Shown one piece after another: positions 40,812 to 52,241 of a DNA stretch of 64,000 nucleotides; the stretch's first letter is position 1; each line of letters opens with the position of its first letter. The stretch is from a virus. Taxonomy: Duplodnaviria; Caudoviricetes. A program made the translations under genes and the position numbers. The notes under the pieces are model-generated. The model ran no database searches and was not told the DNA's origin. It worked only from the letters and a program-made list of their open reading frames with translations. The DNA is taken from the IMG/VR virus record IMGVR_UViG_3300037780_000034, positions 96,001 through 160,000 of that record. One strand, given 5' to 3'.

Positions 40812-40933
40812 TGCATCGTAGCTCAGAGGTAGAGCAGGTGACTGTGGATGCTAAAGGTCATAGGGTCAGTTCGATTCTGACAGCATCAACCGTAATCACT
40901 TGGTCGCAGGTTCGATCCCTGCCGATGCAGCCA
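40812..40933 (+). tRNA. tRNA-Asn(GTT) interrupted in the anticodon loop by a 47-nt tRNA-minihelix insert (40846-40892)
   Basis: Removing the insert gives GGTGA-CTGTTAA-TCACT; G73 and CCA present. Confidence 0.75.
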
Positions 40934-41420: not shown

Positions 41421-41516
41421 AAATATGTCGGTTCCATTCAGTTGGTTTATTGAAGAACGATACTTCAATTTAGTCTAGTCGTTTAGACAATCGGCTCCAT
41501 TTTTAAACTTTTTTTT

Positions 41517-41645
41517 AGGATCATTTCCGCAATATTTTACTTTGCATCAGAAGCACGTGTTTGCAGGTTCAAGTCCTGCCTCCCCAACCATAATAATTGA
41601 CGGGGAGTAGGCAAATGGTAAAGCCGCGTTAAGTAATATGATCCT
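41517..41645 (+). tRNA. Circularly permuted tRNA (anticodon CAG) in WCMGCAA scaffold
   Basis: 3' part 41544-41590 (ends CCA) precedes 5' part 41601-41629; rejoined stem CGTGC/GCACG. Confidence 0.7.
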
Positions 41646-41756
41646 GTTATATACTACAGGCTAACTTTTGGGGGTTAGCTTGGTGTTACAGAAGTATAGG
41701 AAATCATTCGGAACCAAATAATGCCTATACCATTTTACGGTTCCAGCAAAACACAG

Positions 41757-42543: not shown

Positions 42544-42617
42544 GGCTCTATTGCATTGTGGAATGCAGCGGCTTCTAACCCCGTTTCAAGCAGGTTCGAC
42601 TCCTGTTAGGGCCACCA
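42544..42617 (+). tRNA. Arg-type tRNA body with ambiguous anticodon (CTA in canonical register, TCT in shifted register)
   Basis: GCGGC-TTCTAAC-CCCGT; A20; CCA. Confidence 0.7.
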
Positions 42618-43192: not shown

Positions 43193-43337
43193 ATATGTTG
43201 AAACTTAATTGTCAGTCTGACGTTTCAATATTAATTAATTAATGACTGGCCAAAGGCTTGATGTGTTAAAAACCTTGTGGTGATGTAATCAAGATAAACC
43301 ACATAAACTCCTTTGTATGAAATGAAATTTCCTCTTT

Positions 43338-43394
43338 AGGATGATTACCGCAAAATTAATAAACTTTTTTTTGGTAAAAGCAGAACATCATCCT
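43338..43394 (+). ncRNA. WCMGCAA-scaffold RNA carrying a bare Gln(TTG)-type anticodon stem-loop
   Basis: AGGATGA/TCATCCT; CTTTT-TTTTGGT-AAAAG. Confidence 0.6.
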
Positions 43395-43407
43395 GATTGT
43401 GTATTGT

Positions 43408-43572: not shown

Positions 43573-43647
43573 GCGGACATCGTATAAGGTTATTACGCTT
43601 GGCGACCAGCTAAGAAATACAGGTTAGAATCCTGTTGTCCTGCTCCA
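43573..43647 (+). tRNA. Atypical tRNA-Gly-like gene (anticodon ACC, G33, bulged acceptor)
   Basis: CTTGG-CGACCAG-CTAAG; T-loop TTAGAAT. Confidence 0.55.
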
Positions 43648-43785: not shown

Positions 43786-43805
43786 GTATTAGTTTTTGAT
43801 TTTTT

Positions 43806-43863
43806 AGGATGACTTCCGCAAAATTATGCATTTGACCGTTAATCAAAAAAGCAAAATCATCCT
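43806..43863 (+). ncRNA. WCMGCAA-scaffold RNA carrying a bare Asn(GTT) anticodon stem-loop
   Basis: AGGATGA/TCATCCT; TTTGA-CCGTTAA-TCAAA. Confidence 0.6.
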
Positions 43864-43873
43864 GTAATAGAAT

Positions 43874-44467: not shown

Positions 44468-44538
44468 ATCTTCTAATAATATAAATAATTATAGAAATTT
44501 GCAACCATTATACAACTACCAAAAAGGATTAAAATGTT

Positions 44539-44661
44539 AGGATCATTACCGCAATTTTATTTGCATTTCCAGCCGTAGATGCAGGTGCAATTCCTGCTCA
44601 CCCTACCAATATAAATTATGGGGTGATCGTCTAATAGTAGGACAACGTATAATATGATCCT
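44539..44661 (+). tRNA. Circularly permuted tRNA-Glu(TTC) in WCMGCAA scaffold
   Basis: 3' part 44563-44608, 5' part 44620-44647; rejoined stem ACGGC/GCCGT; Glu-type D arm. Confidence 0.72.
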
Positions 44662-44697
44662 GTTCTTTAAAAAAAAGAAAGTTAATTTAAGTTTTTT

Positions 44698-44815
44698 AGA
44701 TTATGTTCAGCAAACCATATAAATTATATGAAAGCCTATCAACGTTGCCGGAAGGCCCGTATGGCAAACCCAGTTTTCGATTTTCTGGTTCTATAAAAAA
44801 GTAGACACATAATCT
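44698..44815 (+). ncRNA. WCMGCAA-scaffold RNA with long-variable-arm-like and T-arm-like hairpins
   Basis: AGATTATGT/ACATAATCT; TTCAGCAA. Confidence 0.5.
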
Positions 44816-44823
44816 GTAATAAT

Positions 44824-46560: not shown

Positions 46561-46568
46561 AATAATTT

Positions 46569-46652
46569 AGGAATATTTCAGCAAATTTATCTTGGATAAA
46601 ACATTGTTCTCAAAAACAAAGTGAAGTGGTTCAAATCCACATCAATATTCCT
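46569..46652 (+). ncRNA. WCMGCAA-scaffold tRNA mimic (D-like, anticodon-like and T arms; no CCA)
   Basis: AGGAATAT/ATATTCCT; TTGTT-CTCAAA-AACAA; GTGG-TTCAAAT-CCAC. Confidence 0.55.
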
Positions 46653-46663
46653 GACTAATATCT

Positions 46664-46773
46664 TGGAACATTACCGCAACTATAACATAAACAATGGGTT
46701 ACAGGTTCAAATCCTGTCTTTTACAGTTTGTAAAAGTAGTTCAATGGTAGAACAATTGTCAAAAAATGTTCCA
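46664..46773 (+). tRNA. Degenerate circularly permuted tRNA (anticodon CAT) in WCMGCAA scaffold
   Basis: 3' part ~46684-46725, 5-nt linker, 5' part 46730-46759; GTAAAAG/CTTTTAC acceptor; no encoded CCA. Confidence 0.6.
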
Positions 46774-46782
46774 GTATTTTAT

Positions 46783-46856
46783 GGGGGATTAGTTCAATGG
46801 TAGAACAGGTGCTTTACGCGCATCATACAGCAGTTCGATTCTGTTATCCCCTACCA
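46783..46856 (+). tRNA. tRNA-Val(TAC)
   Basis: GGTGC-TTTACGC-GCATC. Confidence 0.9.
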
Positions 46857-48512: not shown

Positions 48513-48605
48513 TTTTATGATACACTGTCCGCAACAGGTCTTGATGGGGTAGCTTACGAGCAAGCCAAAGTGTAGGTGTAAGTCCTACCGCAGTGTATCA
48601 TAAAA
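48513..48605 (+). ncRNA. WCMGCAA-scaffold RNA with 15-bp stem and T-arm
   Basis: TTTTATGATACACTG/CAGTGTATCATAAAA; TCCGCAA; GTAGG-TGTAAGT-CCTAC. Confidence 0.55.
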
Positions 48606-48701: not shown

Positions 48702-48777
48702 TGGTAGAAGGGAAATTGGCGACCGACCGCACTTTGAATGCGTGTTATTGTAAGTTCGAATCTTACTCTACCAACCA
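48702..48777 (+). tRNA. tRNA-Gln(TTG)
   Basis: CGCA-CTTTGAA-TGCG; U1-A72. Confidence 0.85.
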
Positions 48778-51142: not shown

Positions 51143-51148
51143 TCTTTT

Positions 51149-51367
51149 TGGATCAGTTCAGCAAACAATATTTCCGTGAAAAGGACCGTGACGGTGGTGC
51201 AAATCCGCCCTTCCCCGCCACAGATACACTATGACAACATAGACGGGTTAATCGCCGTAGGAACGAAGCAGTTTCCAAACCAACGATAGGAAGAGTTTGT
51301 CGTCTTCTGTAGTGTATCTTTGACGGGGAAGTAGCTCAGTTAGTAGAGCAGGTAAAAAGTTGATCCA
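51149..51367 (+). tRNA. Circularly permuted tRNA-Phe(GAA) in WCMGCAA scaffold; linker holds another hairpin RNA
   Basis: 3' part 51174-51220, 5' part 51325-51353; rejoined 76 nt with stem GGTCC/GGACC. Confidence 0.75.
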
Positions 51368-51368
51368 G

Positions 51369-52152: not shown

Positions 52153-52241
52153 AGGGGTGCGCCAACGTTGGAGTGTTGGGCTGGTCTCCAAAACCAGTGT
52201 TTGAAAAAACTTAGTGAGTTCGAATCTCATCACCTTTGCCA
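52153..52241 (+). tRNA. tRNA-Trp(CCA) with long variable arm
   Basis: CTGGT-CTCCAAA-ACCAG; G73. Confidence 0.85.

What the first reader, a model, noticed from the sequence alone, without database searches (positions are those of the whole stretch)
46664..46773. Fourth permuted tRNA (CAT) with a minimal linker and no CCA
Seen: T arm ACAGG-TTCAAAT-CCTGT and acceptor CTTTTAC, a 5-nt linker AGTTT, then GTAAAAG, D arm GTTC/GAAC and ATTGT pairing with ACAAT around AACATAA. The break fits 31|32 better than 29|30, A33 is abnormal and CCA is not encoded. Inference: either a degenerate copy or an RNA whose acceptor end stays closed as a hairpin, i.e. an uncharged mimic.
Basis: partly seen in the sequence, partly recalled or inferred. 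Interest (0 to 1): 0.6.

Follow-up and report, generated by a model that had tools for sequence, protein, structure and literature searches.

The report
Phage Y-RNA-like back-to-front tRNA mimic
This 112-base stretch in a giant phage's tRNA cluster is a conserved, tRNA-shaped non-coding RNA written back to front on a short "handle", with no usable anticodon or CCA end. It is most likely a partner RNA of the phage's Ro60-like ring protein and not a tRNA gene.

Summary
Window 46663-46774 (+) holds a T arm, a 7-bp acceptor stem closed by a 5-nt loop, a D arm, and an anticodon-type stem formed across the two ends. A 10-bp outer stem frames all of this.

It is not a degenerate copy. An orthologue in a related phage keeps every helix through 5 double compensatory changes, and the tertiary 15-48 pair also covaries. 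It is also not a tRNA(CAT): in the orthologue the CAU triplet is not conserved, neither copy has U33, and neither encodes CCA.

The outer stem plus ACCGCAA is a conserved "handle". At least 8 sibling RNAs in this tRNA island share it, and so do RNAs in many other phages, including Felix O1 and a mycobacteriophage.

Viral records picked by the handle alone carry a DUF2828-DUF7788 gene in 7 of 8 cases, against 0 of 5 controls. The copy in this phage is predicted to fold as a Ro60/TROVE ring.

Best reading (about 0.6): a YrlA-like Y RNA variant whose handle docks on the Ro60-like protein and whose tRNA-shaped body acts as tether or bait. Binding and expression were not tested.

This scan has noted the handle family before on other DNA. 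I found no paper describing it.

The parts
46663..46672 (+). 5' strand of the outer (handle) stem, UUGGAACAUU
   Evidence: It pairs with 46765-46774 over 10 bp, the terminal pair being U.G. The stem is identical in the orthologue. Across the 8-member alignment 7 of the 9 modelled pairs covary.
46673..46679 (+). Handle motif A-CCGCAA, a family-wide (A/U)C(A/C)GCA(A/U) placed 0-3 nt after the stem
   Evidence: The motif is shared by sibling RNAs in the window and by elements in other phages.
46680..46690 (+).
   Evidence: It is not closed into a loop. It has A at position 33, and the CAU triplet is not conserved in the orthologue.
46691..46695 (+). 3' strand of the anticodon-type stem (tRNA positions 39-43)
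   Evidence: It pairs with 46755-46759. Compared with the orthologue there is one double compensatory change and one mismatch.
46696..46700 (+). Variable loop GGGUU, ending in U48
   Evidence: Position 48 covaries with position 15 in 8 of 8 family members.
46701..46717 (+). T arm: 5-bp stem with loop UUCAAAU
   Evidence: There are two double compensatory changes against the orthologue. Across the family 100% of cells in this helix are paired.
46718..46736 (+). Acceptor stem of 7 bp closed by the loop AGUUU (46725-46729); no CCA
   Evidence: There are two double changes and one G.U change against the orthologue, whose loop is 8 nt and unrelated in sequence. All 7 pairs covary in the family.
46737..46754 (+). 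U8 A9, the D arm (GUUC / AAUGGUA / GAAC) and A26
   Evidence: U8, A14, G18 and G19 are all present, and A15 pairs with U48.
46755..46759 (+). 5' strand of the anticodon-type stem (tRNA positions 27-31)
   Evidence: It pairs with 46691-46695.
46760..46764 (+). A-rich trailer CAAAA
   Evidence: It is conserved in the orthologue (CAAAAAU). A-rich trailers are found throughout the family.
46765..46774 (+). 3' strand of the outer (handle) stem, AAUGUUCCAG
   Evidence: It pairs with 46663-46672.
46567..46654 (+). Sibling handle RNA 8 nt upstream, with a T-arm-like hairpin and an anticodon-arm-like hairpin
   Evidence: It has an 11-bp outer stem followed by U-CAGCAA. Model R1 scores it at 26.7 bits.
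46783..46856 (+). tRNA-Val(UAC), 8 nt downstream on the same strand
   Evidence: Called by ARAGORN and Rfam. The same order, mimic before tRNA-Val before dCMP deaminase, is seen in the related phage.
41516..41646 (+). Sibling: handle plus a permuted full tRNA body with ACCA encoded
   Evidence: R1 scores it at 101.4 bits; sequence.
44538..44662 (+). Sibling: handle plus a permuted tRNA body with ACCA encoded
   Evidence: R1 scores it at 110.3 bits; sequence.
43337..43395 (+). Sibling: 59-nt mini handle RNA
   Evidence: R1 scores it at 35.9 bits; sequence.
43805..43864 (+). Sibling: 60-nt mini handle RNA that displays an anticodon-arm-like hairpin
   Evidence: Seen. Near-identical designs occur in other phages.
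44697..44816 (+). Sibling: 120-nt handle RNA with a different body
   Evidence: Seen. Rfam gives a weak match to Dictyostelium Class I RNA.
51148..51368 (+). Sibling: handle plus a permuted tRNA-Phe-like body with a long linker
   Evidence: Seen.

Best explanation
The element is a non-coding RNA of about 112 nt, made as part of the phage's tRNA operon. It has two modules.

The first module is a 'handle': a 10-bp terminal stem followed by ACCGCAA on the 5' side and an A-rich stretch on the 3' side.

The second module is a tRNA-shaped body written 3' half first. The order is the 3' strand of the anticodon-type stem, variable loop, T arm, acceptor stem closed by a short loop, D arm, then the 5' strand of the anticodon-type stem. 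The body keeps the nucleotides that build the tRNA elbow, but it has no closed anticodon loop, no conserved anticodon and no CCA.

It most likely works like a YrlA-type Y RNA. The handle would dock on the phage's Ro60-like ring protein (DUF2828-DUF7788, encoded about 50 kb upstream next to an Rnl1-type RNA ligase). The stable tRNA-like body would act as tether or bait for a factor that recognises tRNA shape, for example an exoribonuclease as in Ro60-Y RNA-PNPase particles, or RNA-repair enzymes.

Shown here: the structure and its covariation, membership of the handle family, co-occurrence of the handle with the protein gene, and the predicted Ro60-like fold of the protein.

Inferred: transcription and processing, physical binding, and the identity of the tethered partner.
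For: Structure:
- All helices are present, and Rfam YrlA matches the element end to end at 31.5 bits.
- The orthologue L064:1983-2098 lies in a related phage whose dCMP deaminase is 72% identical, with the same gene order. It differs by 5 double compensatory changes, one G.U change and one mismatch, and its 15-48 pair changes from A-U to G-C.
- On 8 family members 90.8% of cells are paired, against 70.1% in shuffles and 39-46% when partners are slid. 23 pairs carry double changes.
- The 15-48 pair covaries in 8 of 8 members.
- The body is not a recent copy of any tRNA in the window; the best match is 47 of 72 bases.

Not a decoding tRNA:
- The CAU triplet and the acceptor loop are not conserved, there is no U33 and no CCA.
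- The genome has no RtcB and no splicing endonuclease.

Family and partner:
- The handle is shared by sibling RNAs in the window.
- It also occurs in tRNA islands of other viral contigs.
- 7 of 8 other records chosen by the RNA pattern alone carry DUF2828, although they are only 5-32% complete. 0 of 5 control records do.
- The own genome carries the gene.
- Handle RNAs lie directly beside the gene in G005, in L110-L112, in mycobacteriophage GuuelaD and in Felix O1.
- The AlphaFold model (pLDDT 79, pTM 0.76) has Ro60/TROVE rings as its top 12 PDB matches, over its full length.

Precedent:
- YrlA RNAs with the same T-acceptor-D order bind Rsr (PMC4201824).
- Thermus phage phiLo Ro60 binds phage Y-like RNAs and host PNPase (PMC12135203).
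Against:
- In this genome the protein gene lies about 50 kb from the RNA, so the link rests on co-occurrence across phages.
- The handle motif (CCGCAA) is not the GNCGAA motif of known Y RNAs. Pfam's TROVE model does not match the protein. The Rfam YrlA score is far below the gathering score of 69.
- The proposed fold is not the computed minimum-energy fold (-21.1 against -25.7 kcal/mol).
- Sibling RNAs that encode ACCA or GCCA, and have discriminator bases suited to their anticodons, show that some family members could be real tRNA precursors.
Confidence: 0.6

Rival explanations
1. It is a true circularly permuted tRNA gene. Leader and trailer, brought together by the outer stem, would be cut off and the ends ligated, for example by the phage Rnl1-type ligase. 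RNase P and 3' trimming would then open the acceptor loop, and the phage CCA-adding enzyme would complete a working tRNA.
For: - The phage encodes an Rnl1-type RNA ligase and a CCA-adding enzyme.
- The acceptor stem has the 7 bp that RNase P prefers, and M. smegmatis YrlA is cut by RNase P and gains CCA (PMC4201824).
- Sibling elements encode ACCA and closed anticodon loops. Two elements in another phage have discriminator bases that suit their anticodons: Asp GUC with G73 and Phe GAA with A73.
- This phage has no ordinary tRNA-Phe gene.
Against: - For this element the would-be anticodon is not conserved between orthologues, and both have A, not U, at position 33.
- No CCA is encoded, whereas every ordinary tRNA gene here whose 3' end I read encodes it.
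- There is no bulge-helix-bulge motif, no splicing endonuclease and no RtcB.
- The phage already has three ordinary CAU tRNAs.
- The same handle frames bodies that cannot become tRNAs, namely mini hairpins of about 60 nt.
Confidence: 0.07
2. It is a tRNA-shaped decoy or stabilising and processing module that acts without the Ro60-like protein. It could soak up a host tRNA-targeting nuclease or modification enzyme. Alternatively it could simply provide RNase P and exonuclease stop sites in the polycistronic tRNA transcript.
For: - It sits 8 nt from its neighbours in a tRNA operon.
- The tRNA elbow nucleotides are under selection.
- Sibling RNAs display anticodon-arm mimics with different triplets, which suggests sequence-specific baits.
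Against: This reading does not explain the conserved handle or its strong co-occurrence with DUF2828 genes (7 of 8 against 0 of 5). It also does not explain the direct adjacency of handle RNAs to that gene in Felix O1, GuuelaD and several metagenomic phages.
Confidence: 0.18
3. It is a decaying remnant of a tandem tRNA duplication and has no function.
For: - A33, no CCA and a minimal linker all look defective for a tRNA.
- Its 18-nt D-arm segment is identical to that of the neighbouring tRNA-Val.
Against: - Pairing is kept by compensatory changes in the orthologue, and the tertiary 15-48 pair covaries.
- Closed-acceptor versions recur in independent phage lineages.
- The body is only about 65% identical to any tRNA in the window.
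Confidence: 0.04

Closest known systems
YrlA-type bacterial and phage Y RNAs with Ro60/Rsr (Rfam RF02553; Chen et al. 2014, PMC4201824)
   Same: The ends pair to form a protein-binding stem. The inside holds a tRNA-like module in the same order: variable region, T arm, acceptor-like stem-loop, D arm. The Levitt pair covaries. Several different Y-like RNAs occur per genome. The system is linked to a Ro60-fold ring protein and to RNA ligase genes. M. smegmatis YrlA, which also has a 7-bp acceptor stem, is cut by RNase P and gains CCA.
   Different: The handle carries (A/U)C(A/C)GCAA, not GNCGAAN0-1G. The stem is perfect, with no middle helix. The Rfam score is 31.5 against a gathering score of 69. 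The partner protein is DUF2828-DUF7788, which Pfam's TROVE model does not detect. In this genome the RNA sits in the tRNA island, not beside the protein gene.
Thermus phage phiLo Ro60 with Yrl1/Yrl2 (PMC12135203; PDB 9KOP, 9L5Y)
   Same: It is a phage-encoded Ro60 ring with phage-encoded partner RNAs. The ring forms a ternary complex with host PNPase. It is among the best structural matches of this phage's protein.
   Different: The phiLo RNAs carry the CGAA motif and are described there as stem-bulge-stem RNAs, with no tRNA-like body mentioned in what I read. Sequence identity of the proteins in the structural alignment is about 15%.
Circularly permuted tRNA genes of the red alga Cyanidioschyzon merolae and some archaea
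   Same: The 3' half precedes the 5' half, the acceptor ends are joined by a short linker, and leader and trailer pair with each other.
   Different: Those genes form a bulge-helix-bulge motif cut by the tRNA-splicing endonuclease, and they yield decoding tRNAs. Here there is no such motif or enzyme, no conserved anticodon and no CCA. My two searches of the open-access library found no paper on permuted tRNA genes in bacteriophages.
Class I RNAs of dictyostelid amoebae (Rfam RF01414; PMC7919456)
   Same: A short terminal stem is followed on the 5' side by a conserved motif, and the rest is variable. Sibling mini handle RNAs give sub-threshold Rfam matches: 33.1 bits against a gathering score of 41.5 in L043, and 21.2 bits at window 44699-44816.
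   Different: This element itself gives no match at E up to 1. Class I RNAs are about 60 nt, eukaryotic, and bound by an RRM protein. The likeness is a lead only.

Membership tests
YrlA (Rfam RF02553) | tRNA-like module in the order T arm, acceptor-like stem-loop, D arm, enclosed by paired 5' and 3' ends | tested here: met
   The cmscan alignment covers model positions 1-114. The helices covary and the Levitt pair covaries.
YrlA (Rfam RF02553) | GNCGAAN0-1G motif on the 5' strand of the Ro-binding module (PMC4201824) | tested here: not met
   The sequence at that place is ACCGCAAC, and the model's stem pairs there are non-canonical.
YrlA (Rfam RF02553) | Score at or above the curated gathering score (69 bits) | tested here: not met
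   The element scores 31.5 bits. The orthologue scores 30.9 bits and two relatives score 35-44 bits.
YrlA (Rfam RF02553) | Encoded next to an rsr/TROVE (PF05731) gene | tested here: not met
   PF05731 has no match in the 318-kb record. A Ro60-fold DUF2828 protein is encoded about 50 kb away.
Handle RNAs of phages with DUF2828 proteins (uncatalogued; noted repeatedly by this scan) | Terminal stem of 7-11 bp with covariation, followed within 0-3 nt by (A/U)C(A/C)GCA(A/U) | tested here: met
   The element has a 10-bp stem followed by A-CCGCAA. The stem covaries across the family.
Handle RNAs of phages with DUF2828 proteins (uncatalogued; noted repeatedly by this scan) | Co-occurrence with a DUF2828-DUF7788 gene in the same phage | tested here: met
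   The own genome has the gene. 7 of 8 other handle-bearing records have it, against 0 of 5 controls. Handle RNAs are adjacent to the gene in Felix O1, GuuelaD and L110-L112.
Circularly permuted tRNA genes (algal and archaeal type) | 3' half upstream of 5' half, with the acceptor ends linked | tested here: met
Circularly permuted tRNA genes (algal and archaeal type) | Bulge-helix-bulge motif at the leader-trailer junction, and a splicing endonuclease to cut it | tested here: not met
   The junction is a perfect 10-bp stem beside an asymmetric 18/5-nt internal loop. PF01974 and RtcB have no match in the genome. The host's enzymes are unknown.
Circularly permuted tRNA genes (algal and archaeal type) | A functional, conserved anticodon loop after joining | tested here: not met
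   A is at position 33 in both orthologues, and the CAU triplet is replaced.
Ro60/TROVE proteins (the proposed partner) | HEAT-repeat ring plus vWA domain | tested here: met
   The top 12 Foldseek PDB matches are Ro60/Rsr/phiLo Ro60 over the full length (TM 0.49-0.60, E 1e-8 to 2e-5); vWA domains follow. This rests on a predicted model with pLDDT 79.
Ro60/TROVE proteins (the proposed partner) | Binds the RNA's terminal stem | not testable with these tools
   No RNA-protein modelling or binding assay was available.

The most novel reading that the evidence does not exclude
The Ro60-like ring, with its panel of handle RNAs (back-to-front tRNA bodies such as this one, plus anticodon-arm mimics carrying different triplets), could be a phage counter-defence particle. 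It would bait host tRNA-cleaving nucleases or recruit the neighbouring Rnl1 ligase to damaged tRNAs. A related possibility is that RNase P opens closed-acceptor members such as this one and CCA is added, giving a two-piece RNA that can be charged while staying bound to the ring.
Probability: 0.2. Interest if true: 0.85.

Novelty: new variant of a known kind. Interest (0 to 1): 0.62.

Why it matters
Y RNAs with tRNA-like modules are known from bacteria and a few phages with canonical Ro60. This element belongs to a much wider phage family that I did not find described. The family has a different handle and a divergent Ro60-like protein, and that protein has matches in 710 cultured-phage records, including Felix O1, mycobacteriophages, and Listeria, Staphylococcus, Campylobacter and Vibrio phages.

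This has three consequences:
- Some 'odd' or 'permuted' tRNA-like sequences in phage tRNA clusters may be parts of ribonucleoprotein particles, not tRNA genes.
- The family gives a tractable system (Felix O1 on Salmonella or E. coli) for asking what Ro60-type rings do during infection.
- Genome annotation should not count such elements as decoding tRNAs.

Tried and rejected
- DNA similarity search of the locus against cultured phages found only tRNA and deaminase fragments, and no relative of the element.
- Pfam's TROVE model (PF05731) on the own genome gave nothing. The partner was found only with PF11443, after a lead from earlier notes.
- RtcB and the tRNA-splicing endonuclease are absent from the record.
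- A fixed 17-mer handle pattern in viral contigs gave mostly chance hits; about 4 of 26 were real. Patterns that also required the 3' strand worked better.
- A metagenome-wide pattern search for more orthologues with this element's own stem gave 9 hits, none with a tRNA body. They are chance matches or other cargo. I therefore have only one true orthologue.
- The position just upstream of tRNA-Val in the two nearest relatives holds a protein gene. The orthologue lies about 900 bp further upstream.
- The promoter and terminator scan was uninformative.
- MAFFT misaligned the acceptor stem and the anticodon-type stem of the sub-types, so I used the model-based alignment A5 instead. Helix 2 in A5 remains misaligned for the ACCA-bearing sub-type (63% paired).
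- A mobile-element reading, with the outer stem as terminal inverted repeats, was considered and dropped. The stems covary and do not keep one sequence, and the elements sit in conserved order within tRNA operons.

Full report
**Setting.** The window is part of a 317,722-bp uncultured virus record, estimated 85% complete. Between about 41 and 54.5 kb of the window lies a tRNA island. It has 22 tRNA genes called by ARAGORN, all on the + strand. The finding sits 8 nt upstream of tRNA-Val(UAC) and 8 nt downstream of another small structured element.

**Checking the observation.**
- the 3' strand of an anticodon-type stem (46691-46695);
- a five-base variable loop;
- a canonical T arm (46701-46717);
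- a 7-bp acceptor stem whose strands are joined by the five bases AGUUU (46718-46736);
- U8 and A9, then a D arm (46739-46753);
- the 5' strand of the anticodon-type stem (46755-46759).

No CCA follows the acceptor. The seven bases before the stem, AACAUAA, have A where tRNAs have U33.

ARAGORN recognises a cloverleaf when the halves are re-ordered. Rfam's YrlA (Y RNA-like) model aligns end to end at 31.5 bits. That is E 2.5e-5 for the region and 8.3e-6 for the genome, but well below the curated cut-off of 69. The proposed fold is not the computed minimum-energy fold (-21.1 against -25.7 kcal/mol). The whole region folds only moderately better than shuffles (z = -2.55). The case therefore rests on comparative evidence.

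**A family, not a single oddity.** A scan of the genome for stems followed by C-N-GCAA showed a cluster of elements, all in the tRNA island and all on the + strand. They share a terminal stem (typically UAGGAUNAU paired with AUNAUCCUG, and covarying in some copies), followed on the 5' side by (A/U)C(A/C)GCAA. I call this module the handle. The siblings carry three kinds of cargo:
- Mini RNAs of about 60 nt, some showing a hairpin shaped like an anticodon arm (43337-43395, 43805-43864).
- Back-to-front full tRNA bodies that encode ACCA plus a linker (41516-41646, 44538-44662, and a Phe-like one at 51148-51368).
- Back-to-front bodies with a closed acceptor and no CCA. This element is one of these.

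Pattern searches found the same handle, often in tandem arrays inside tRNA islands, in other viral contigs.

I built a covariance model from five back-to-front members. It recovered further full-length members that were not in the model:
- L064:1983-2098 at 90.4 bits;
- two in record G001 at 78.1 and 61.5 bits;
- one in Salmonella phage Felix O1 at 37.3 bits;
- one in Mycobacterium phage GuuelaD at 33.6 bits.

**The orthologue decides between 'degenerate' and 'selected'.** L064:1983-2098 comes from a phage whose dCMP deaminase is 72% identical to the one here. It has the same gene order: mimic, then tRNA-Val, then deaminase. It sits 10 nt after a tRNA-Ser. Compared with the element here, the differences are as follows:
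- The outer stem is identical.
- Five base pairs have changed on both sides and still pair: tRNA positions 28-42, 49-65, 50-64, 1-72 and 6-67.
- One pair became G.U, and one (29-41) became a mismatch.
- The tertiary Levitt pair 15-48 changed from A-U to G-C.

Across the eight aligned family members the 15-48 pair is A-U four times and G-C four times, with no exception. On that alignment 90.8% of cells are paired, against 70.1% in shuffles and 39-46% when partners are slid. Twenty-three of 30 pairs show double changes. U8, A14, G18, G19, the U54-U55-C56 run of the T loop and A58 are all present. The body is only about 65% identical to any tRNA in the window, so it is not a fresh duplicate. The RNA is under selection to keep a tRNA-like L shape.

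**Why it is not a decoding tRNA.**
The CAU triplet is not kept, and neither copy has U33.
- The acceptor loop is AGUUU here and an unrelated eight bases there. Neither contains CCA, whereas the ordinary tRNA genes of this phage whose 3' ends I read encode CCA.
- The junction between the outer stem and the anticodon-type stem is an asymmetric 18/5-nt internal loop, not a bulge-helix-bulge.
- The record has no tRNA-splicing endonuclease and no RtcB.
- The phage already has three ordinary CAU tRNAs.
- Closed-acceptor, CCA-less bodies recur in independent lineages: L043:3645-3762 (4-nt loop), a G001 element (7-nt loop) and Felix O1.

I cannot exclude that RNase P opens the loop. The stem has the 7 bp that made M. 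smegmatis YrlA an RNase P substrate, after which CCA was added (PMC4201824). The phage also encodes a CCA-adding enzyme.

**The likely protein partner.** A search with Pfam's TROVE model found nothing. Earlier notes of this scan pointed to DUF2828, and I tested that lead.
- The own genome encodes a 475-residue DUF2828-DUF7788 protein at G000:85,209-86,636. It lies about 1.5 kb downstream of a T4 Rnl1-type RNA ligase domain.
- An AlphaFold model built on 74 sequences (pLDDT 79, pTM 0.76) has solved Ro60/TROVE rings as its 12 best PDB matches, over the full length: Thermus phage phiLo Ro60, Xenopus and human Ro60, and Deinococcus Rsr (TM 0.49-0.60). vWA domains follow.
- Of eight other viral records chosen only by the RNA handle, seven carry a DUF2828 gene although they are just 5-32% complete.
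- Five control records that matched only a chance 17-mer carry none. My own hand calculation of a Fisher exact test on these counts gives p of about 0.005.
- Handle RNAs lie directly beside the gene in record G005 and in three metagenomic loci taken from distant homologues.
- In GuuelaD three handle RNAs sit in the gap after the gene annotated 'Ro-like RNA binding protein'. In Felix O1 four sit in the tRNA cluster right after ORF86.
- The protein family has matches in 710 cultured-phage records.

**Mechanism proposed.** By analogy with Ro60-Y RNA particles, the handle would dock on the ring and the tRNA-shaped body would be the effector module. In bacteria and in Thermus phage phiLo, Y RNAs tether Ro60 to PNPase (PMC4201824, PMC12135203). 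Bacterial rsr-yrlA loci sit in RNA-repair operons, and here the ring gene sits next to an Rnl1-type ligase (the same arrangement appears in a close relative). The structure, the covariation, the co-occurrence and the predicted fold are shown. Transcription, binding and the identity of the tethered factor are inferred. I put this reading at about 0.6. The rivals are:
- a decoy or processing module that acts without the ring (about 0.18);
- a true permuted tRNA precursor (about 0.07 for this element, higher for its ACCA-bearing siblings);
- a dead remnant (about 0.04).

**Comparison with what is known.** The element works like a YrlA-type Y RNA but fails three of that family's defining tests: the GNCGAA motif, the Rfam cut-off and a neighbouring TROVE gene. 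I therefore file it as a new variant and not as a member. It has the gene order of algal and archaeal permuted tRNA genes, but it lacks their splicing motif and a usable anticodon. Sibling mini RNAs give sub-threshold matches to Dictyostelium Class I RNAs. This element itself does not.

Literature searches found no description of permuted tRNA-like RNAs in bacteriophages, nor of DUF2828 as an RNA partner. A jumbo-phage survey mentions TROVE proteins in a few phages, without naming the RNAs (PMC7824862). A mycobacteriophage screen found the 'Ro-like' protein mildly toxic when overproduced (PMC13148394).

This scan has noted the same handle family many times on other genomes. I re-tested the main claims independently here.

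Noticed in passing
window 40812-40930: A tRNA gene (Rfam 54.5 bits, missed by ARAGORN) carries an insert of about 46 nt in its anticodon loop. The insert itself folds into a stem closed by a T-arm-like hairpin (GTCAG/TTCGATT/CTGAC). It is far too short for a group I intron.
   Followed up: partly
window 42544-42617: A tRNA with anticodon CUA (ARAGORN labels it 'Pyl') is an amber-suppressor-type tRNA. The phage may read UAG as sense in some genes.
   Followed up: no
window 41516-41646 and 44538-44662; L090:1501-1623(-) and L091:1501-1626(-): These sibling and foreign handle RNAs hold complete back-to-front tRNA bodies. They have closed anticodon loops, encode ACCA or GCCA, and (in the two foreign ones) have discriminator bases that suit the anticodon: Asp GUC with G73 and Phe GAA with A73. 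The last 2-3 bases after the D arm complete a perfect 5-bp anticodon stem across the break. These could be genuine two-piece or re-joined tRNAs.
   Followed up: partly
window 43805-43864; L011, L029, L036, L042, L043: Mini handle RNAs of about 60 nt display a single 5-bp hairpin with a 7-nt loop of the form C-U-NNN-A-A. The triplets differ between copies (UGU, UUU, GUA, GUU). They look like a set of anticodon-arm mimics.
   Followed up: partly
window 48513-48605: A 93-nt element has a 16-bp terminal stem directly followed by CCGCAA, plus a T-arm-like hairpin (GTAGG/TGTAAGT/CCTAC). It may be a divergent handle RNA.
   Followed up: no
window 46739-46754 and 46792-46807: The D-arm segment of the mimic (18 nt, TAGTTCAATGGTAGAACA) is identical to that of the adjacent tRNA-Val. 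The rest of the two RNAs differs.
   Followed up: partly
G000:83269-83679 and 85209-86636 (outside the window); L085, L086: The Ro60-like gene lies near a T4 Rnl1-type RNA ligase domain and a DNA ligase. In relatives it also lies near an Acb1-type (anti-CBASS) gene and a PP-loop ATPase of the TilS type. A conserved 190-residue gene with no Pfam match follows it.
   Followed up: no
window 48702-48774, 43575-43640, 52153-52237: Rfam finds further tRNA-like matches that ARAGORN does not call: 36.5 and 33.4 bits to the tRNA model, and 35.7 bits to tRNA-Sec, which is below that model's cut-off.
   Followed up: no
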